DNA of 64,000 nucleotides, taken from the NCBI GenBank assembly GCA_943914465.1, contig CALUCD010000006.1:67234-131233 (forward strand), in the 5' to 3' direction. Under the pieces are notes generated by a model, which made no database searches, had not been told where the DNA came from, and worked only from the letters and a program-made list of their open reading frames with translations. This document shows positions 27,763-33,913 of the stretch, one piece after another. The first letter of the stretch is position 1; each line of letters opens with the position of its first letter. The stretch is from an uncultured Corynebacterium sp. (GTDB lineage Bacteria > Actinomycetota > Actinomycetes > Mycobacteriales > Mycobacteriaceae). The position numbers were made by a program, and so were the translations under genes.

Positions 27763-28959
27763 TTACTTCTCGCCTTCCGGCACACCCTCGTGCTGCTCTT
27801 TAGTCCACAGCGAGCGTGCCGGGATCTTGCTACGATCGGCGCGATCGGCGTACTTGCGTGCGACGTCCTCGACTTCCTGGAGCAAGCCTTCCGCGAGGTA
27901 GGTCGGTTCGAGGCCGAGACCGATGAAGGTGTCGTTCGCCACGTGCAGTTCATTCTCGGCGGACTCTTTGCGCGGGTTCGGCACCATCTGCACCTCCGCG
28001 CCGGAAATTTTGCCGATCAGCTCGGCGAGGTCGCGCACACGGTGGGTCTCCGTCATTTGATTGAAGATCTTGACGCGCTCACCCTTCGCCGGCGGGTTCT
28101 CCACCGCGAGCTGAATGCATTTCACCATGTCCTGGATATGGATAAAGGCGCGGGTTTGACCACCCGTGCCGTGCACGGTGAGGGGGTAGCCCACCGCAGC
28201 CTGCATGAGGAAGCGGTTGAGCACCGTGCCGTAGTCGCCGTCGTAGTCGAACCGGTTGATCAGTCGCTCGTCGCGCTGTGTCTGGGGAGTGTGGGTTCCC
28301 CAGATGATGCCCTGGTGCAGATCAGTGACCCGTAGTTCATCGTTCTTTGCGTAGTACGCGAACAGGCTTTGATCCAGCACCTTGGTCATGTGGTAGACCG
28401 AGCCAGGGTTAGTGGGGTAGAGGATCTGTTGCTCCACAACGCCGCTATCACCGGCGTCAACTTGAATGTCGAGGTAGCCCTCAGGAATCTTCATACCGGC
28501 CGTGCCATAGCCATACACGCCCATGGTGCCAAGGTGAATAACGTGGATATCAAGGCCCGACTCCACGATTGCTACGAGCAGATTGTGGGTCGCGTTGACG
28601 TTGTTGTCGACCGTGTAGCGCTTTGTGCGCTGATTTTTCATTGAGTACGGGGCGGCGCGTTGTTCCGCGAAGTGAATGATTGCGTCTGGCTCAAATTCGG
28701 TGATGAAGCTCAACAGCGCTTCGAAGTCTTGAGCGACGTCGATCTGCCGGAAGCCGATGTCTTTGCCGGAGATTTCCTTCCACGCTGCCAATCGCTGCTC
28801 AATGGATGCGATCGGTGTCAGTGATTCGGCACCGAGTTCTTTGTCGATGGCGCGGCGCGAGAGGTTGTCTACAATTACCACGTCATGGCCGATATCTGAG
28901 AGGTGCAGTGAAGCGGGCCATCCGCAGAATCCGTCCCCGCCTAGAACCGCAATCTTCAT
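27763..28959 (-). CDS. sqdB: UDP-sulfoquinovose synthase (SqdB/SQD1 family NAD-dependent epimerase/dehydratase)
   Basis: Very strong family match over the whole length (VLGGDGFCGWP..LHLS, VIVDNLSRR..D.ELG.ESLTPIASI, EQRAAPYSM, HLGTMGVYG, VYHMTKV, RVTDLHQGIIWG, NRFDYDGDYGTVLNRF, VPNPRKE.AENELHVAN), comparable to plant SQD1 and cyanobacterial SqdB. Confidence 0.85.
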   Translation of the reverse strand: MKIAVLGGDGFCGWPASLHLSDIGHDVVIVDNLSRRAIDKELGAESLTPIASIEQRLAAWKEISGKDIGFRQIDVAQDFEALLSFITEFEPDAIIHFAEQRAAPYSMKNQRTKRYTVDNNVNATHNLLVAIVESGLDIHVIHLGTMGVYGYGTAGMKIPEGYLDIQVDAGDSGVVEQQILYPTNPGSVYHMTKVLDQSLFAYYAKNDELRVTDLHQGIIWGTHTPQTQRDERLINRFDYDGDYGTVLNRFLMQAAVGYPLTVHGTGGQTRAFIHIQDMVKCIQLAVENPPAKGERVKIFNQMTETHRVRDLAELIGKISGAEVQMVPNPRKESAENELHVANDTFIGLGLEPTYLAEGLLQEVEDVARKYADRADRSKIPARSLWTKEQHEGVPEGEK

Positions 28960-29085
28960 GAACTGACCTTCCGTCTCACATCACCCGCACTCCGGCGCCG
29001 TCGCCAGAGCTTCCGCACCACGTTACATTCGCTGCCGCGCATGTGGGGCAGATCGAAGATGAACGTTGGGTGAAACCCACTGTGC

Positions 29086-29114
29086 GTGCTCTAGCGTATC
29101 TGACGCTAGAGCAC
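29086..29114. promoter_or_regulatory. Perfect 12-bp-arm palindrome GTGCTCTAGCGT-ATCTG-ACGCTAGAGCAC, about 125 bp upstream of sqdB and about 250 bp downstream of the ATPase gene
   Basis: Seen directly. No T-tract, so not a classical intrinsic terminator; candidate operator or recombination site at the left edge of the ATPase/Mrr insert. Confidence 0.45.
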
Positions 29115-29364
29115 CAGGCTGAGCGCATTCGCAATTGAATCCCACAGGCCAGTTATAGAAAAACTTAAGTCTGTGATAGAGTTTTGCCATGATGCTGGTA
29201 GCCACTGCTTGGCTAAGTCACTATTCACAAGGCTGCGGAGGTCGGCCGCGCCGGAGTGGAAATGAGCATCAAGCTGTGAGCTGAGCGGGGTCGGACCCGA
29301 TGTTGGACGAGAGTTCATGAAGCCGATAGTAACCCGCTGGGTTTGATCCGCGTGTAACCCGCGT

Positions 29365-30495
29365 TTAATCCCACCCCATATCCCGGGTGCCGCCGGAGAG
29401 CAAGTGGTGGGACATGTGGGGGATGATGAAGTTCAGGTACCCGCGCTGCGGGCAGTACACCAGCTCGCGCTCAATCAAACCGTGGCGGGGCATCGAAAGA
29501 TCTCGTGGCTCCTTATTGAGACGCCCAGCAATCGCGCCGGTGGACACAGGTTTTTCTCCGTCCTGAAGTTCAGCCATTGCGCGGAGATATTCCATCTGCG
29601 AATTCGGGATGCCGGCCAGCGCGGGCTTGTGAATGAGCTGGCCGAGGGTGTCCAACACGTCCGGTGTGACCGCACGGAGGTCATCAGCACTGACGACGCC
29701 GTCGCGCCCGGCTGCTTGTTCGTAGAGGTGGTAACCCAGCAGCTGGATGAGGAATGGGTAGCCGCGGGTGAGCTTCACCGCGTCATCGAGCACTGTGCCC
29801 TCGAAAGTGAGCCCTCCCTTCTTCGCGGTTGTAGAGAGAATCTCGCGGGTTTCCTCCGGGCTTAGCGGCGTGAGGCTGAGCTGCTGAGCCCGTTGGAGGA
29901 ACGTTGCGCCGGGGTGGCGAAGCAGGTCGTGAATTCCAGCGGGCAGGCCGGCGGCGGCGAATGCGATCTGGCGGTTGTCGCGGCGCAGATCTTGGATGGT
30001 GGTTGCGAGCTCCCAAAGCTCTGCAGGGTCGATGCTTTGGACCTCGTCCACAGAAACAAGCACGCCCGATTCTGGGCCGATCACATCGCACAGCTCGTTG
30101 AGCGAGGTAATGAGCGACGGTGAAGACGAAATTTCCCCGTTTTGTTCGTTTTGTTTAGTTTCTGGGGTTGAAACCTTGTTCACCAACCCGATTTGACGCT
30201 TCGAACCTTCGCGTTTGAGCGCCGCGATGGTCTGCGGGATAACGGTGTCAACGAGTGGCTGAACGAGGTTGTGTGGTTGGGCGCGGAGCACAACCCAGCC
30301 GTGAGCTGCTGCCTCATCCTCAATGATGTTGAGCGTCACAGTCTTGCCAAATCCTTTTGGCCCCGAAATAAGTAGAGCTCGGCGGGGGTCTCCGATGCCG
30401 GAGTCCAGGCTTTTGCCGAAAGCGCTCACCAAATGCTCACGGCCTTTCAAGATGGCGGGGGACACGCCAAACGTTGGCGCGAACGGATTACTCAT
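29365..30495 (-). CDS. AAA+ ATPase of the archaeal-type/ORC-Cdc6-like (PF01637/AAA_16-like) family with a C-terminal winged-helix domain; function unknown, candidate defence-associated NTPase
   Basis: N-terminal F..GRE.L motif (FGVSPAILKGREHLVSAF), Walker A GPKGFGKT, Walker B VLVSVDEVQ, C-terminal wHTH-like region (YLRAMAEL...GAIAGRL...LIERELV). Start placed at the ATG at 30495 (GAAAGGA 9 nt upstream); the ORF-track start at 30552 is a TTG. An internal Q/N/E/S-rich insert is encoded by an AT-rich patch. Confidence 0.65.
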   Translation of the reverse strand: MSNPFAPTFGVSPAILKGREHLVSAFGKSLDSGIGDPRRALLISGPKGFGKTVTLNIIEDEAAAHGWVVLRAQPHNLVQPLVDTVIPQTIAALKREGSKRQIGLVNKVSTPETKQNEQNGEISSSPSLITSLNELCDVIGPESGVLVSVDEVQSIDPAELWELATTIQDLRRDNRQIAFAAAGLPAGIHDLLRHPGATFLQRAQQLSLTPLSPEETREILSTTAKKGGLTFEGTVLDDAVKLTRGYPFLIQLLGYHLYEQAAGRDGVVSADDLRAVTPDVLDTLGQLIHKPALAGIPNSQMEYLRAMAELQDGEKPVSTGAIAGRLNKEPRDLSMPRHGLIERELVYCPQRGYLNFIIPHMSHHLLSGGTRDMGWD

Positions 30496-30577
30496 CCCTG
30501 AATCGTCCTTTCTACGATTTGAGGGTTTAGAAACGTTAGATTCTTTAGACAAAGATCGCTAGCGCTCAGGAATCGTT

Positions 30578-30601
30578 ACAAATGTCGTTGAGGACATTTG
30601 T
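30578..30601. promoter_or_regulatory. Inverted repeat ACAAATGTC-GTTGAG-GACATTTGT, about 85-105 bp upstream of the ATPase start codon
   Basis: Seen directly: 9-bp perfect arms with a 6-bp spacer, in the AT-rich ATPase/Mrr divergent intergenic region. Candidate operator. Confidence 0.4.
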
Positions 30602-30862
30602 CAGAAATCGCCCGGTGGCCGGTCTTGAACAGCGGAAATGATGGATTTGGTCAGGCCTAGACCGGGGGGCAATTTTCCCCAGAGATAGCTGGGGGGACCC
30701 CGCAAAACTATAGTCTGTGACTAAGCTGTGCAAAGGCTCTCAATAAAATAAATATAGGTTGTATCAATCATTAGTAACGCCGAAGTTGTGTGGCCTTTTA
30801 ACGAAACAAGTGAATATGATTACCGGGCTCGGGCTTCGGTGACGGCCAGTGGCGTCTCCTTA

Positions 30863-31090
30863 TTACTGCTGCGTCGGCTTGGGCCAGACGAGCTCAAACG
30901 TCTCGCACTGTACGGCTGCAGCGAACTGCGGCGTGCCCTCGAGAAAGGGAGTCTGCTCGACCTTCACGGCCTTGATAATCGCGGCGGGCTCGCCTCGACC
31001 GTCGAGCACAACGCTACGTTCGTCAACCTGGATCGCCGGGTCACAGTGTCGGGTCGTACGAGTGGGCGAACTACCACAGAATGACACCAT
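30863..31090 (-). CDS. Possible small ORF (75 aa) in the ATPase/Mrr divergent intergenic region; hypothetical
   Basis: Codon-position GC by hand: pos1 about 64%, pos2 about 41%, pos3 about 78% for this minus-strand frame, which fits host coding statistics better than the overlapping plus-strand ORF. No recognisable domain and no clear RBS. Confidence 0.3.
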   Translation of the reverse strand: MVSFCGSSPTRTTRHCDPAIQVDERSVVLDGRGEPAAIIKAVKVEQTPFLEGTPQFAAAVQCETFELVWPKPTQQ

Positions 31091-31220
31091 TGCTATTCAT
31101 AGGAAGTTTTCGCTTATCGTCGCAATTCGTGGTGGTACCTTACCTAGAGCATCGGAGACTCTAAATTCCGCTGGTTAGAGAGCTTGTTACTTTGCTGTTA
31201 CTTGTTAGAAGGGGACCGGA

Positions 31221-32288
31221 ATGGACGTTGTTGGAATAATGGCAAAGTGCTGGGGAGTCAACACGGATAGCGTGGGGAACATCTCCGGGGAGGAGGGCAC
31301 GATCGCGATCGGCTGGGATGAGGTGGGCGACCTGCGCCAACTTGCGACGACCCGGGATGCGATCAAAAAGGCGCTTACCGCGAATGCGCCGCAGGAGACG
31401 CCACAACGCGCTGCCAGCGCGACGGGTGCGCTGTATAAATTCGCGCACGAAATGAAACCCGGCGACATTGTCGTCGTCTCGTCCAAGTACGATGGCGCAA
31501 TCAACATCGGGAAGGTCGCAGGCTCGTACTACTACGACTGTGAGGCAACCTCGAACCGGCATCGCAGGTCCGTTGAGTGGCTGCGGGTGGGTATCGCCCG
31601 GACCGTCTTCAGCCAAGCCGCGCTCTATGAATTCGGGTCTGCCCTTGCGGTCTTTCCCATCCGGAGCCACAAGGCTGAAGTAGAGGCCCTACTCAATAGT
31701 GAGTCTGAGGATTTGGACGCGATTTCCAAGTCGCTCGGCCAACTGACGTTCGATCTGGGAACGGAGGATGAGATCGCCGTTCCTTGTGCAGGGCAGGTAG
31801 AGCAACGAACTCGAGATTTTATTGTCGGCAAGCTCCAAGACGCGATCTCGCCCGCTGACTTCGAGCGGTTCATTGCAGACCTGGTGGGGTGTTTTGGCTA
31901 CCACGCGCGTGTGACGCGACAGGTGCACAGTGACACCGCGAGTGTTCTGGCCAGCAAGGATCCCCTTGGATTGGAATCCCCGCACATCGTCATCCGATTG
32001 GCGCAGCAGGTCAATGAGATCAGTAGTGCTGATATTGAGAGCGTCCTCGCCGCACAGGACGGACACGGTGCGCATAGTCTGCGCGAGGCCGATGAGTTGA
32101 ATGTGCTTGTGACTCTCGGCGGGTTTTCAGATGAGGCGTTGGCTATCGAACAGCAACGCCCGGGGGTGCGCTTACTTTCGGGGGAGGACGTCGCCCGCCT
32201 TGTCACTGAAGTTTATGATCGCCTCCCGCTGCGGTGGCAAACACTCATCCCGCTCCAACCAGTGCTCGCCGTCGCCGAAAACAGTTGA
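31221..32288 (+). CDS. Mrr-like restriction endonuclease: N-terminal putative modified-base reader domain (by-eye resemblance to an EVE-like fold; the least certain element) fused to a C-terminal Mrr-cat (PD-(D/E)xK) nuclease domain; predicted type IV modification-dependent restriction enzyme
   Basis: C-terminal half (about aa 205-340) matches the Mrr_cat pattern (FERFIADLVGCFGY, KDPLGLE, VLVTLGGFSDEA, RLLSGEDVARLV) and aligns by eye with E. coli Mrr. The N-terminal about 150 aa carry GDIVVVSSK and IGKVAGSYYYD motifs reminiscent of EVE-type folds, not the winged-helix Mrr_N. AGAAGGGG RBS lies 6 nt before the ATG. Confidence 0.7.
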   Translation: MDVVGIMAKCWGVNTDSVGNISGEEGTIAIGWDEVGDLRQLATTRDAIKKALTANAPQETPQRAASATGALYKFAHEMKPGDIVVVSSKYDGAINIGKVAGSYYYDCEATSNRHRRSVEWLRVGIARTVFSQAALYEFGSALAVFPIRSHKAEVEALLNSESEDLDAISKSLGQLTFDLGTEDEIAVPCAGQVEQRTRDFIVGKLQDAISPADFERFIADLVGCFGYHARVTRQVHSDTASVLASKDPLGLESPHIVIRLAQQVNEISSADIESVLAAQDGHGAHSLREADELNVLVTLGGFSDEALAIEQQRPGVRLLSGEDVARLVTEVYDRLPLRWQTLIPLQPVLAVAENS

Positions 32289-32296
32289 CAGGGCCA

Positions 32297-32728
32297 CTAG
32301 CTCTGAACAATTAATCCCAGATGGATGCTTTCCAGCTCGTGTTCACCCGGGCCGGCTGGGAGCGCTTGGAGCTCACGCGCCGTGGCGGGGGAGACGGGGA
32401 TGATCCATCCGCGTTTCGGGTCGAGCACTGGGTTCACGCCCGACCGTGATGGCGTGAACGTCACAGCGCGCTCGGCGGTGTCGCTGACGAGCTGGATGGC
32501 GCCACGCAGCTGTTGCAATGCAGCCAGCGCCGATGCTGTGGTGGTGATGATGACGAGTTTTTCATCAGTGTCCGGAGACAGGTTCGCGGTGTGTACGGCC
32601 AGTGTCTCAACGTGGACCTGCTCCACGCGGGTGGGGTATTCCACCAGTGTGTTTTGCTTCGCGGCTGCTCGGCGGCGGGCACCCATCAACCTGCGGATCC
32701 GATCCATGAAGGACTGTGTAAATGACAT
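32297..32728 (-). CDS. Hypothetical protein (about 143 aa)
   Basis: ORF with host-like composition and no domain I can recognise. Start placed at MSFTQSF; the ORF-track upstream extension looks non-coding. Confidence 0.35.
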   Translation of the reverse strand: MSFTQSFMDRIRRLMGARRRAAAKQNTLVEYPTRVEQVHVETLAVHTANLSPDTDEKLVIITTTASALAALQQLRGAIQLVSDTAERAVTFTPSRSGVNPVLDPKRGWIIPVSPATARELQALPAGPGEHELESIHLGLIVQS

Positions 32729-32773: not shown

Positions 32774-33913
32774 ATGGCAAAAATACCGGAGGGGACCTCG
32801 CACCGAGCGGAGCTGATCTTGCCGTATGGTGTCGGTGAGCTTCAGCTGGCCCAGCCGCGGGCGCACTTTGACGATCCGCTGGCACCAGGCCAGCGCCTGA
32901 CTCGTGCTGCCTGGAAGCTCGTGCTCAAACGAGTGGTGTCGGATTTCTCCAACGATGCGATGGTGGATCGCGGCGCGACGCTGACGTACTACACGGTGCT
33001 CTCGCTTGCACCCCTCCTGCTTGCGGTGTACTCAATTGTGGCGCTGGTATTGCCCCGGGAGGAGACATCGGTCAATGCGTTGTTGAGAGACCTTATCGGC
33101 AACTCTGTGCCGGCTGAGCTGCAACAAGAGACGCTGGGCCTTTTGCTGTCCATTATCGGCACACCGTCGCAGAGTACTGTGGCGCTTTCGGCGTCGGTGG
33201 TCATCTCGCTGCTGTCGGCCTCTGCATACGTACGCTCGTTTGCCCGCAACGCAAACCTTATCTATGGGCGTACGGAAGGGCGCAACATTGTGGTGACGTG
33301 GACGACGATGTGGATAATCACGCTCGTCATGGTGGTGGGAGCGGTCATCATCATCCTTGGTGCGTTACTCACCGATTCAATCGTGACGGCCGTGCTCGGC
33401 CCGATTGCGCGTCCGCTGCAGCTTGAAGCCGCCTTGGAATACCTCACTGGAATCTTCTTGCCGGTGTGGGCGTACGTACGGGTACCGGTGATTGTCATTA
33501 CTGCGATCGCGTTGATTTCTGTGCTGTATTACTTCGCGCCGAATGTGCGGCCGGGCCGGTTCCGGTTGCTGTCCTTGGGGGCAACGGTGGCGCTCCTTGT
33601 GATTGGCCTAATTTGGTTCGCTTTTGGCTGGTACCTCTCGGCGGTTGGTGTGCGATCGCCTTATGGAGCGTTTGGCACGGTGCTGGCAGTGTTGGCGCTG
33701 GTGTGGGTGATGAACATCGTGCTGCTCGAAGGCGTGAAAATCGACGCCGAGGTGCTTCGCGCCAAAGAACTGCAAGTCGGTATGGATTCAGCTTCGCTCA
33801 TCCAGGCGCCAGCGCGCTCGAATGAGGCAGTGAAGTTTCGTCTGCAGCTCGAGGCGTGGGCGCAGCGCTCGGTGCGGGAAATCCAAGCTCGCGTATCGCG
33901 CGATGAGGAGTAG
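32774..33913 (+). CDS. YihY/BrkB family inner-membrane protein (formerly annotated ribonuclease BN-like)
   Basis: TLTYYTVLSLAPLLL... and a six-TM profile typical of YihY family proteins. Confidence 0.7.
   Translation: MAKIPEGTSHRAELILPYGVGELQLAQPRAHFDDPLAPGQRLTRAAWKLVLKRVVSDFSNDAMVDRGATLTYYTVLSLAPLLLAVYSIVALVLPREETSVNALLRDLIGNSVPAELQQETLGLLLSIIGTPSQSTVALSASVVISLLSASAYVRSFARNANLIYGRTEGRNIVVTWTTMWIITLVMVVGAVIIILGALLTDSIVTAVLGPIARPLQLEAALEYLTGIFLPVWAYVRVPVIVITAIALISVLYYFAPNVRPGRFRLLSLGATVALLVIGLIWFAFGWYLSAVGVRSPYGAFGTVLAVLALVWVMNIVLLEGVKIDAEVLRAKELQVGMDSASLIQAPARSNEAVKFRLQLEAWAQRSVREIQARVSRDEE

What the first reader, a model, noticed from the sequence alone, without database searches (positions are those of the whole stretch)
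28960..32300. Compact insert carrying an orphan AAA+ ATPase and a divergently transcribed Mrr-cat nuclease with a possible EVE-like reader domain: candidate modification-dependent defence locus
Between two clearly housekeeping or metabolic genes (sqdB and a YihY membrane protein) sits a roughly 3.3-kb stretch holding two divergently oriented genes around a 725-bp AT-rich spacer. One is a 376-aa AAA+ NTPase with a C-terminal winged helix. The other is a 355-aa protein whose C-terminus is an Mrr-cat restriction nuclease domain, and whose N-terminus does not look like the usual Mrr_N winged helix. Instead that N-terminus has a beta-rich pattern (GDIVVVSSK..., IGKVAGSYYYD) reminiscent of EVE-like modified-base readers. 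A reader domain plus Mrr-cat is the architecture of type IV enzymes such as the MspJI family; an EVE-like reader fused to Mrr-cat here, if confirmed, with an NTPase neighbour, would be a poorly characterised combination. No integrase or transposase is present. The left edge carries a perfect 12-bp-arm palindrome, and direct repeats GTAACCCGC (29329-29337 and 29354-29362) lie just 3' of the ATPase stop.
Basis: partly seen in the sequence, partly recalled or inferred. Interest (0 to 1): 0.75.

Follow-up and report, generated by a model that had tools for sequence, protein, structure and literature searches.

The report
Nuclease-dead reader–Mrr restriction-enzyme relic
The segment holds a lone AAA+ ATPase, the wreck of an ASCH gene, and a protein built like a modification-dependent restriction enzyme (EVE/YTH-like reader plus Mrr nuclease) that has lost its essential cutting residues but is still kept by selection, so it is probably a DNA reader, not a working defence nuclease.

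Summary
Two divergent genes (ATPase 29365-30495 minus strand; 355-aa protein 31221-32288 plus strand) flank a 725-bp spacer of lower GC content.

The defence-locus reading fails on three points:
- In this copy and its two orthologues, the Mrr motif II and III residues (D-x3-D, Q-x-K) are S, S, R and A. Alanine substitutions at three of these positions (both Asp, Lys) abolish cleavage in LlaGI. Yet dN/dS is about 0.13, so the gene is retained.
- The ATPase is not a partner.
- The "spacer" hides a YhfF-type ASCH pseudogene that is intact in close relatives.

The segment is lineage-specific cargo in a variable sqdB-orf143 site. Verdict: a degenerate, possibly repurposed member of a known but uncharacterised candidate family. 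Interest is moderate to low.

The parts
29365..30495 (-). Solitary AAA+ (AAA_16) ATPase of 376 aa. Walker A GPKGFGKT lies at 30340-30363 and Walker B LVSVDEVQ at 30037-30060. The C-terminal approx. 80 aa look like a winged helix, but this is not confirmed by any profile.
   Evidence: Pfam AAA_16 5e-12. No PADLOC system hit, best E 0.009. 91% aa identity to L001 and 97% to L104. dN/dS 0.06-0.08. Motifs located. The C-terminus gives only a weak Fe_dep_repress HTH hit, E 0.045.
31221..32288 (+). 355-aa DUF8426 + Mrr_cat protein (PADLOC PDC-S02 family). It has a reader-plus-nuclease architecture, but the nuclease is predicted to be inactive.
   Evidence: PADLOC PDC-S02 1.7e-78 over the full length. 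The identical protein P0001 carries precomputed PF28530 (DUF8426) plus PF04471. Foldseek hits MspJI at E 1.8e-8. dN/dS 0.12-0.16.
31221..31715 (+). N-terminal EVE/YTH-like PUA-fold domain (residues 1-165), the predicted modified-base reader.
31839..32201 (+). Mrr_cat PD-(D/E)XK domain (residues 207-327). Motif I (F214-E215) is kept. Motif II D-x3-D is changed to S237...S241 (31929-31943). Motif III Q-x-K is changed to R259-L-A261 (31992-32006).
   Evidence: Pfam Mrr_cat 43.8 bits. 74 of 76 homologues keep D...(Q/E)xK. 83 of 96 cluster representatives keep it, and only this clade lost all of it. 10 of 31 conserved C-domain positions are changed. LlaGI D74A, D78A and K94A are inactive (PMC2790908).
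30875..31042 (-). Pseudogene remnants of a YhfF-type ASCH gene. Two deletions of about 104 and 107 bp removed the start, the GRKTATT motif and the EGEGD...W..H motif.
   Evidence: tblastn with the L001 ASCH protein. L001 ASCH matches Pfam ASCH at 7e-20. The gene is intact (142 aa) in L104, which is 94-95% nt identical to the window. Homologues are named YhfF or ASCH.
29086..29114 (.). Perfect hairpin with a 12-bp stem and 5-nt loop, overlapping the stop codon of orf70. It is probably a terminator-like element at the end of the ATPase-orf70 unit, facing the sqdB promoter region.
   Evidence: No U-tract follows the stem. The left arm is not conserved in L001.
29106..29318 (-). Conserved 70-aa ORF of unknown function, downstream of the ATPase.
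   Evidence: 89% aa identity to L001, dN/dS 0.21. Homologues occur in the same variable region in L011 and L014. No Pfam or PHROG hit.
30496..30602 (.). Block upstream of the ATPase that is about 95% identical to L001. It contains the 9-bp inverted repeat ACAAATGTC-N6-GACATTTGT (30578-30601), a possible operator.
31131..31220 (.). It contains tandem TGTTACTT copies (31185, 31196) and a GAAGGGGA ribosome-binding site.
32297..32728 (-). 143-aa conserved core gene (orf143). It marks the right border of the variable segment and is not part of the insert.
   Evidence: It lies next to BrkB in C. riegelii, Q4381, MSK041, C. mucifaciens, C. senegalense and C. lubricantis. In C. lubricantis it directly abuts sqdB.

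Best explanation
About 3.3 kb of lineage-specific cargo sits in a variable site between sqdB and a conserved 143-aa gene in one Corynebacterium lineage. It carries three unrelated items.

1. A solitary AAA_16 ATPase with intact Walker motifs under strong constraint. Its role is unknown and independent of the neighbouring gene.
2. A recently destroyed YhfF-type ASCH gene.
3. A member of the DUF8426-Mrr_cat family (PADLOC PDC-S02).

As a family, DUF8426-Mrr_cat proteins are built like stand-alone modification-dependent (type IV, MspJI-like) restriction enzymes. An EVE/YTH-like N-terminal domain is predicted to recognise a modified base, and the C-terminal Mrr PD-(D/E)XK domain cuts. In this lineage the common ancestor replaced both motif II aspartates and the motif III Q-x-K with S, S, R and A. 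The reader domain kept its conserved residues, and the whole gene stayed under purifying selection.

The most likely present-day activity is therefore binding to (modified) DNA without cleavage. The protein would be a repurposed reader or regulator, not a restriction enzyme, and it would not act together with the ATPase.

Shown: the fold, the motif loss, the selection, the lack of conserved linkage and the decay of ASCH. Inferred: modified-base binding, loss of catalysis and the present role.
For: - Family identity: PDC-S02 at 1.7e-78; DUF8426 + Mrr_cat on the identical protein.
- Whole-protein similarity to MspJI and AspBHI.
- DUF8426 is also fused to McrB-type AAA_5, GmrSD, HSDR_N and type I R modules. 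These are the partners expected of a specificity domain in type IV restriction.
- Homologues lie in defence islands beside type I and type IIG restriction-modification systems, SMC-like ATPases, HNH, NERD and PLD-helicase genes.
- Motif loss: S237, S241, R259 and A261, against D-x3-D...Q-x-K in 74 of 76 homologues. The loss is shared by the window, L104 and L001.
- LlaGI D74A, D78A and K94A abolish cleavage (PMC2790908).
- Purifying selection: dN/dS 0.12-0.16 in three pairwise comparisons at dS up to 0.86, similar in both domains.
- Asymmetric change: 2 of 28 conserved N-domain positions altered, against 10 of 31 in the C-domain.
- The upstream region is about 95% conserved.
- No linkage: ATPase homologues sit alone in five different contexts. 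Six independent contexts of reader-Mrr homologues lack the ATPase and ASCH.
Against: - No binding or cleavage data exist for any member of the family.
- The EVE/YTH similarity is at fold level only. There is no Pfam EVE hit, and Foldseek on the domain alone gives E about 0.02.
- I could not inspect the model's pocket.
- PD-(D/E)XK sites occasionally migrate. D238 sits one residue from the lost D237, so residual activity is not formally excluded.
- ATPase, ASCH and reader-Mrr are neighbours in all three related genomes. A lineage-specific functional link therefore cannot be ruled out.
- dN/dS comes from only three closely related sequences.
Confidence: 0.6

Rival explanations
1. One reading: a working modification-dependent (type IV) restriction locus. 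The EVE-like-Mrr protein cuts modified DNA, possibly powered or regulated by the neighbouring AAA+ NTPase in a McrBC-like manner.
For: The architecture and fold fit MspJI-type enzymes. The family is a PADLOC defence candidate found in defence islands. Both genes are intact and constrained. They are neighbours in three related genomes.
Against: - All four key motif II and III residues are replaced. Alanine substitution of either motif II Asp or of the motif III Lys abolishes cleavage in LlaGI; Q92A only reduces it.
- The ATPase is AAA_16, not McrB-type AAA_5.
- There is no co-occurrence outside this lineage.
- The one PDC-S02 representative tested in E. coli B was not among the four of eight candidate systems reported to protect against T7, T5 or T4 (10.1101/2024.09.26.614923).
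Confidence: 0.08
2. A lineage-specific three-part system in which the nuclease-dead reader protein acts as a sensor, the AAA+ ATPase as effector or motor, and ASCH as an accessory second reader.
For: The trio ATPase-ASCH-reader is syntenic in L001-L003 and L104. Bell et al. 2020 report recurrent EVE + ASCH + AAA-ATPase neighbourhoods in prokaryotes (PMC7641849). Both intergenic promoter blocks are highly conserved. ATPase homologues often lie near defence-type genes such as a SauUSI-like enzyme, SIR2/SNase and an RNase_T giant protein.
Against: - ASCH is deleted in the window while the other two genes stay constrained.
- The ATPase occurs alone, even among metabolic genes.
- The ATPase has no effector domain beyond a likely wHTH and no PADLOC match.
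- Synteny among three genomes of 82-95% nt identity is expected from vertical descent alone.
Confidence: 0.14
3. A decaying relic with no remaining function. The reader-Mrr gene would be a dead restriction gene on its way to loss, like the ASCH gene beside it.
For: The catalytic residues are lost. The adjacent ASCH is freshly pseudogenised. Sporadic motif loss occurs in about 13 of 96 cluster representatives of the family.
Against: The ORF is full-length in three lineages separated by dS about 0.8. dN/dS is 0.12-0.16 in both domains, close to the housekeeping neighbour BrkB at 0.10. The reader domain keeps 26 of 28 conserved positions. The promoter block is conserved.
Confidence: 0.1

Closest known systems
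PADLOC candidate system PDC-S02 (Pfam DUF8426 PF28530 + Mrr_cat PF04471), annotated as 'restriction endonuclease' or 'restriction system protein'
   Same: Full-length profile match (E 1.7e-78). Same two-domain order and size. Single-gene organisation.
   Different: This copy and its two orthologues lack motif II D-x3-D and motif III Q-x-K, which 74 of 76 close homologues keep. It lies in a variable site without other recognised defence genes. The family itself has no demonstrated activity. The one representative tested was not among the systems reported to protect against T7, T5 or T4.
MspJI / AspBHI family (type IIM/IV modification-dependent endonucleases: N-terminal SRA-like reader plus C-terminal PD-(D/E)XK)
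   Same: Reader-then-nuclease architecture. These are the best full-length structural matches (Foldseek E 1.8e-8 to 7e-7).
EVE-HNH enzymes VcaM4I / TspA15I (Lutz et al. 2019, PMC6765204)
   Different: The nuclease there is HNH, not Mrr PD-(D/E)XK. That paper found PUA-PD-(D/E)XK fusions to be rare, with YenY4I as its one example, which also carries a DUF3427 domain.
E. coli Mrr and LlaGI Mrr-family nuclease domains
   Same: Mrr_cat profile match. Motif I F-E is present.
   Different: No Mrr_N winged helix. Motifs II and III are destroyed. In LlaGI, alanine substitutions at both motif II aspartates and the motif III lysine abolish cleavage, while Q92A only reduces it. That paper also notes naturally inactivated LlaGI-like copies in Bartonella, which is a precedent.
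McrB homologues with YTH/EVE-like N-terminal DNA-binding domains (for example T. gammatolerans McrB)
   Different: The neighbouring ATPase is AAA_16 and is unlinked elsewhere.

Membership tests
Mrr-family PD-(D/E)XK nuclease (Pfam Mrr_cat) | Profile match above the gathering score | tested here: met
   43.8 bits against a cutoff of 21, residues 207-327
Mrr-family PD-(D/E)XK nuclease (Pfam Mrr_cat) | Motif I glutamate (F-E in helix 1) | tested here: met
   F214-E215 present; E in 27 of 35 aligned homologues
Mrr-family PD-(D/E)XK nuclease (Pfam Mrr_cat) | Motif II D-x3-D (both Asp essential in LlaGI) | tested here: not met
   S237 and S241, against D/E and D in 33 of 35 and in 74 of 76 homologues; PMC2790908
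Mrr-family PD-(D/E)XK nuclease (Pfam Mrr_cat) | Motif III Q-x-K (Lys essential) | tested here: not met
   R259-L-A261
Mrr-family PD-(D/E)XK nuclease (Pfam Mrr_cat) | DNA cleavage activity | not testable with these tools
   Requires biochemistry
PADLOC PDC-S02 / DUF8426-Mrr_cat | Full-length match to the PDC-S02 models | tested here: met
   PDLC04819 1.7e-78, residues 7-348 against profile positions 1-326 of 334
PADLOC PDC-S02 / DUF8426-Mrr_cat | N-terminal DUF8426 (PF28530) domain | tested here: met
   Precomputed PF28530 on the identical protein P0001 and on all 76 homologues. The model is not in the local Pfam copy.
PADLOC PDC-S02 / DUF8426-Mrr_cat | Anti-phage activity | not testable with these tools
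   The only published test found (a cold-seep representative in E. coli B, challenged with T7, T5 and T4) did not list it among the protective systems
EVE domain (Pfam PF01878) / PUA-like superfamily | Sequence match to the EVE, YTH, ASCH or SRA profiles | tested here: not met
   No Pfam hit on residues 1-165 even at E <= 10. A profile search against PDB sequences found nothing relevant.
EVE domain (Pfam PF01878) / PUA-like superfamily | PUA-like pseudobarrel fold closest to EVE/YTH | tested here: met
EVE domain (Pfam PF01878) / PUA-like superfamily | Conserved pocket that accepts a flipped modified base | not tested
Only the conservation of W11, W32, F74, Y103, W120, D82 and R116 was seen.
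MspJI-type modification-dependent endonuclease | N-terminal reader plus C-terminal PD-(D/E)XK in one chain | tested here: met
   Foldseek full-length alignments to 4f0q, 4f0p and 4oc8, E 1.8e-8 to 7e-7
MspJI-type modification-dependent endonuclease | Intact catalytic site | tested here: not met
McrBC-like NTPase-dependent type IV system | McrB-type (AAA_5) GTPase | tested here: not met
   The neighbour is AAA_16/AAA_22 with no AAA_5 hit
McrBC-like NTPase-dependent type IV system | Conserved NTPase-nuclease gene pairing | tested here: not met
   Absent from 5 ATPase contexts and 6 reader-Mrr contexts outside this lineage

The most novel reading that the evidence does not exclude
A type IV restriction enzyme has been domesticated. 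After losing its Mrr catalytic site, the EVE/YTH-like reader-Mrr protein was kept for long periods (dS about 0.8) as a non-cutting reader of modified DNA. It could be a bacterial 'epigenetic reader' or regulator, possibly working with the neighbouring, equally conserved AAA+/wHTH ATPase.
Probability: 0.3. Interest if true: 0.6.

Novelty: new variant of a known kind. Interest (0 to 1): 0.35.

Why it matters
At family level, the result gives a structural and contextual rationale for a large, uncharacterised candidate family. PDC-S02/DUF8426-Mrr_cat has 638 cluster representatives at E <= 1e-10 (this count includes hits to either domain alone). DUF8426 is an EVE/YTH-like reader module that is also attached to McrB, GmrSD and HsdR-type effectors, so it is a good target for discovering new modification specificities.

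At locus level, the result is a caution. A domain-architecture hit, or a PADLOC or DefenseFinder call, would score this gene as a defence system although its nuclease motifs are gone.

The retained, constrained, nuclease-dead copy is a small natural experiment on what a reader-only derivative of a restriction enzyme can be used for. It is not a new kind of system.

Tried and rejected
- Sequence-level assignment of the N-domain failed. Pfam at E <= 10, NCBIfam and a profile search against PDB sequences gave nothing. Only structure prediction resolved it.
- I looked for conserved flanks that would mark the ATPase as a mobile cassette. Similarity to other ATPase loci stops at the ORF ends.
- The 28-nt imperfect repeat flanking the ATPase (29160-29187 and 30704-30731, 75% identical) has one copy inside orf70 and the other in a poorly conserved promoter-like stretch. 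I treat it as chance.
- Rfam found nothing (only t44 at E 0.47). No tRNA gene is present.
- The hairpin and the GTAACCCGC repeat were tested as island borders and rejected. Neither is conserved in L001, and the 9-mer repeat is within chance.
- ASCH as a conserved partner of the family was rejected. It is absent from six independent contexts.
- orf143 was first considered part of the insert. It is a core gene beside BrkB in many species.
- PHROGs gave only families of unknown function.

Full report
**1. What is there**

The region holds a 376-aa ATPase gene (29365-30495, minus strand; the mechanical ORF extends to a TTG at 30552). It also holds a 355-aa gene (31221-32288, plus strand). The two are divergently oriented across 725 bp, where GC falls to 0.49 against about 0.60 nearby.

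On the left is sqdB (27763-28959, minus strand; Pfam Epimerase family). On the right is a BrkB/YihY membrane protein (32774-33913).
- a 70-aa ORF (29106-29318, minus strand) just downstream of the ATPase;
- a 143-aa ORF (32297-32728, minus strand) between the 355-aa gene and BrkB.

The 12-bp-arm hairpin (29086-29114) is real. It is unique in the 64-kb window and was not seen in 30 simulated sequences. The two GTAACCCGC copies are real, but repeats of that kind are common by chance. Neither feature is conserved in the sister locus. The hairpin overlaps the orf70 stop codon and looks like a local terminator-type stem (z = -3.6), not an insertion scar.

**2. The 355-aa protein**

Pfam finds only Mrr_cat (residues 207-327). 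No Mrr_N, EVE, YTH, ASCH or SRA profile matches, even at E <= 10 on the isolated N-terminus. PADLOC matches the candidate single-gene system PDC-S02 over the full length (E 1.7e-78). The identical database protein and all 76 homologues carry precomputed PF28530 (DUF8426) plus PF04471.

Foldseek on the domain alone points the same way but weakly (YTH and EVE hits, E about 0.02). The full-length model aligns end to end with MspJI and AspBHI (E 1.8e-8 to 7e-7). The domain is not a member of the Pfam EVE family.

**3. Family-level evidence that DUF8426 is a specificity module of type IV restriction**

An exhaustive HMMER search finds 2887 cluster representatives at E <= 1e-3 and 638 at E <= 1e-10. 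Besides the roughly 340-aa reader-Mrr form, the N-domain alone matches much longer proteins. Pfam shows these to be of several types:
- McrB-type AAA_5 GTPases (five examples);
- a GmrSD enzyme;
- an HSDR_N nuclease;
- a type I R-subunit fragment;
- an Mrr_N + DNA_binding_1 protein.

Reader-Mrr homologues sit beside type I restriction-modification systems (C. flavescens), MmeI/Eco57I-like type IIG enzymes, SMC-like ATPases, HNH and NERD proteins, and PLD-helicase genes. In two other contexts they sit among ordinary genes.

Lutz et al. 2019 searched for PUA-nuclease fusions and reported PUA-PD-(D/E)XK fusions as rare (PMC6765204). Bell et al. 2020 do not mention an EVE-Mrr fusion (PMC7641849). 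The one PDC-S02 representative tested experimentally was not among the four of eight candidates that protected E. coli B from T7, T5 or T4 (10.1101/2024.09.26.614923). The family is catalogued but functionally uncharacterised.

**4. This copy is catalytically disabled**

Mrr-family nucleases have motif I (E), motif II (D-x3-D) and motif III (Q-x-K). In LlaGI, D74A, D78A and K94A abolish cleavage, and Q92A and E38A reduce it (PMC2790908).

The family consensus here is (D/E)GG(V/I)D...KVQ(C/V)K. The window protein reads S237-D-T-A-S241...I-R259-L-A261. Motif I (F214-E215) is kept.
- Among 76 homologues, 74 keep D...(Q/E)xK. The exceptions are the identical protein and the 81%-identical orthologue.
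- Among 96 cluster representatives covering the motifs, 83 are intact and 13 have at least one change. Only this clade has lost all of them.
- Of the positions that are at least 90% conserved in the family, 10 of 31 in the C-domain are changed here, against 2 of 28 in the reader domain.

**5. Yet it is maintained**

Three related contigs carry the same arrangement: L104 (94-95% nt identity), and L001-L003 (82-85%). All three orthologues share the dead motifs.

| Gene | Pairwise dN/dS |
|---|---|
| Reader-Mrr gene | 0.116-0.157 (window vs L001: N-domain 0.105, Mrr domain 0.127) |
| ATPase | 0.063-0.077 |
| sqdB | 0.05 |
| BrkB | 0.09-0.11 |
| orf143 | 0.25-0.35 |

That is higher than in the coding regions. 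These blocks contain an inverted repeat (30578-30601) and tandem TGTTACTT copies (31185, 31196). This is not the signature of a pseudogene.

**6. The spacer hides an ASCH pseudogene**

In the window, two deletions of about 104 and 107 bp removed its start, the GRKTATT motif and the EGEGD...W..H block. Fragments remain at 30875-31042. Because L104 is only about 5% diverged and still has the gene, with dN/dS 0.27 between L104 and L001, the loss is recent.

**7. The ATPase is not a partner**

It is an AAA_16/AAA_22 P-loop protein with Walker A GPKGFGKT and Walker B LVSVDEVQ. Its C-terminus looks like a winged helix, but only a weak HTH hit supports this. No PADLOC system matches it.

Its homologues (39-60% identity) are widespread in Corynebacterium and always solitary:
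- between lpd, prpD, citrate synthase and pyc genes in C. appendicis and a relative;
- next to DUF1648-SNase-SIR2 and a YoeB/YefM pair in C. riegelii;
- next to a 1080-aa RNase_T + Sigma70_r4 protein;
- next to a SauUSI-like PLD-helicase-DUF3427 enzyme, a ParA-like ATPase and a DUF222 protein.

DNA similarity to these loci ends at the ORF borders. None of them has a reader-Mrr or ASCH gene. None of the six independent reader-Mrr contexts has this ATPase.

**8. Is it an insert?**

Yes, in the sense of lineage-specific cargo at a variable site. A scan of species-representative genomes with sqdB shows the following:
- In C. lubricantis, sqdB, orf143 and BrkB are adjacent.
- C. riegelii has an HNH protein and a peptidase there.
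- C. sp. Marseille-Q4381 has a 1052-aa RNase_T + Sigma70_r4 protein plus an orf70 homologue.
- MSK041 has PALP and FAD-dependent enzymes.
- C. mucifaciens and LK2522 carry long ORFs that I did not scan against Pfam. From their N-terminal sequences they look like an MMPL-type transporter and a TetR-type regulator; this is my reading, not a tool result.
- C. senegalense has a sulfate symporter.

None has the ATPase-ASCH-reader block. dS values of the cargo genes match those of the flanks. The block has therefore been inherited vertically since before the window and L001 lineages split. No tRNA gene is present, none of the ORFs I scanned in and beside the segment matched an integrase or transposase family, and there are no conserved terminal repeats. 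The mechanism of arrival is unknown.

**9. Interpretation**

Best supported (about 0.6): the block contains three independent items. The fold, motif loss, selection and lack of linkage are shown. Modified-base binding, loss of cleavage and any present role are inferred.

Rivals:
- a working restriction locus with an NTPase partner (about 0.08);
- a lineage-specific sensor-ATPase(-ASCH) system (about 0.14);
- a functionless relic (about 0.1).

**10. Novelty and score**

The architecture is already in Pfam and PADLOC, and it works like the MspJI and EVE-HNH classes. What is new here is the fold assignment of DUF8426, its fusion spectrum, and the finding that this clade is a constrained, nuclease-dead variant. 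That makes it a new variant of a known kind. It is useful as a caution for automated defence annotation and as a pointer to an untested reader module, but it is not a surprising system. Interest 0.35.

Noticed in passing
window 30875-31042 (-): Remnants of a YhfF-type ASCH gene inside the 'spacer'. The gene is intact in the 94-95% identical contig L104 (7881-8309) and in L001. Two deletions of about 105 bp each in the window removed its start and conserved motifs.
   Followed up: yes
window 29106-29318 (-): Conserved 70-aa ORF downstream of the ATPase. It is 89% aa identical to L001 with dN/dS 0.21. Homologues lie in the same variable region of C. sp. Q4381 (L011 4527-4709) and C. mucifaciens (L014 2264-2464). 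It matches no known family.
   Followed up: partly
window 32297-32728 (-): 143-aa ORF with no family hit. It is a conserved core neighbour of BrkB in many Corynebacterium species, with dN/dS about 0.25. The mechanical ORF call of 189 aa overextends it.
   Followed up: partly
They contain a 9-bp inverted repeat ACAAATGTC-N6-GACATTTGT (30578-30601) and tandem TGTTACTT copies (31185, 31196). These are possible operators for an unknown regulator.
   Followed up: partly
L011 4713-7871 (-) and L096 3330-6572 (-): A 1050-1080-aa protein with an N-terminal RNase_T exonuclease domain and a Sigma70_r4 HTH. It occupies the same sqdB-proximal variable site in C. sp. Marseille-Q4381, and it lies directly beside an ATPase homologue in another contig. 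Its function is unknown.
   Followed up: no
L098 1621-4740 (+): A SauUSI-like type IV enzyme (PLDc_2 + DEAD/ResIII helicase + DUF3427) followed by a ParA/CbiA-like ATPase. It lies immediately upstream of a 60%-identical homologue of the window's ATPase, with a DUF222 protein downstream.
   Followed up: no
proteins P0250, P0287, P0289, P0310, P0320, P0295, P0316, P0244, P0242: The DUF8426 reader domain is fused to McrB-type AAA_5 GTPases, GmrSD, HSDR_N, a type I R-subunit domain and Mrr_N + DNA_binding_1. It is a widely reused specificity module that appears undescribed in the papers consulted.
   Followed up: partly
window 29160-29187 and 30704-30731: An imperfect 28-nt direct repeat (75% identity) brackets the ATPase gene. 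One copy is inside orf70. The other overlaps a sigma-70-like promoter match (30734-30707, minus strand). It is probably chance.
   Followed up: partly
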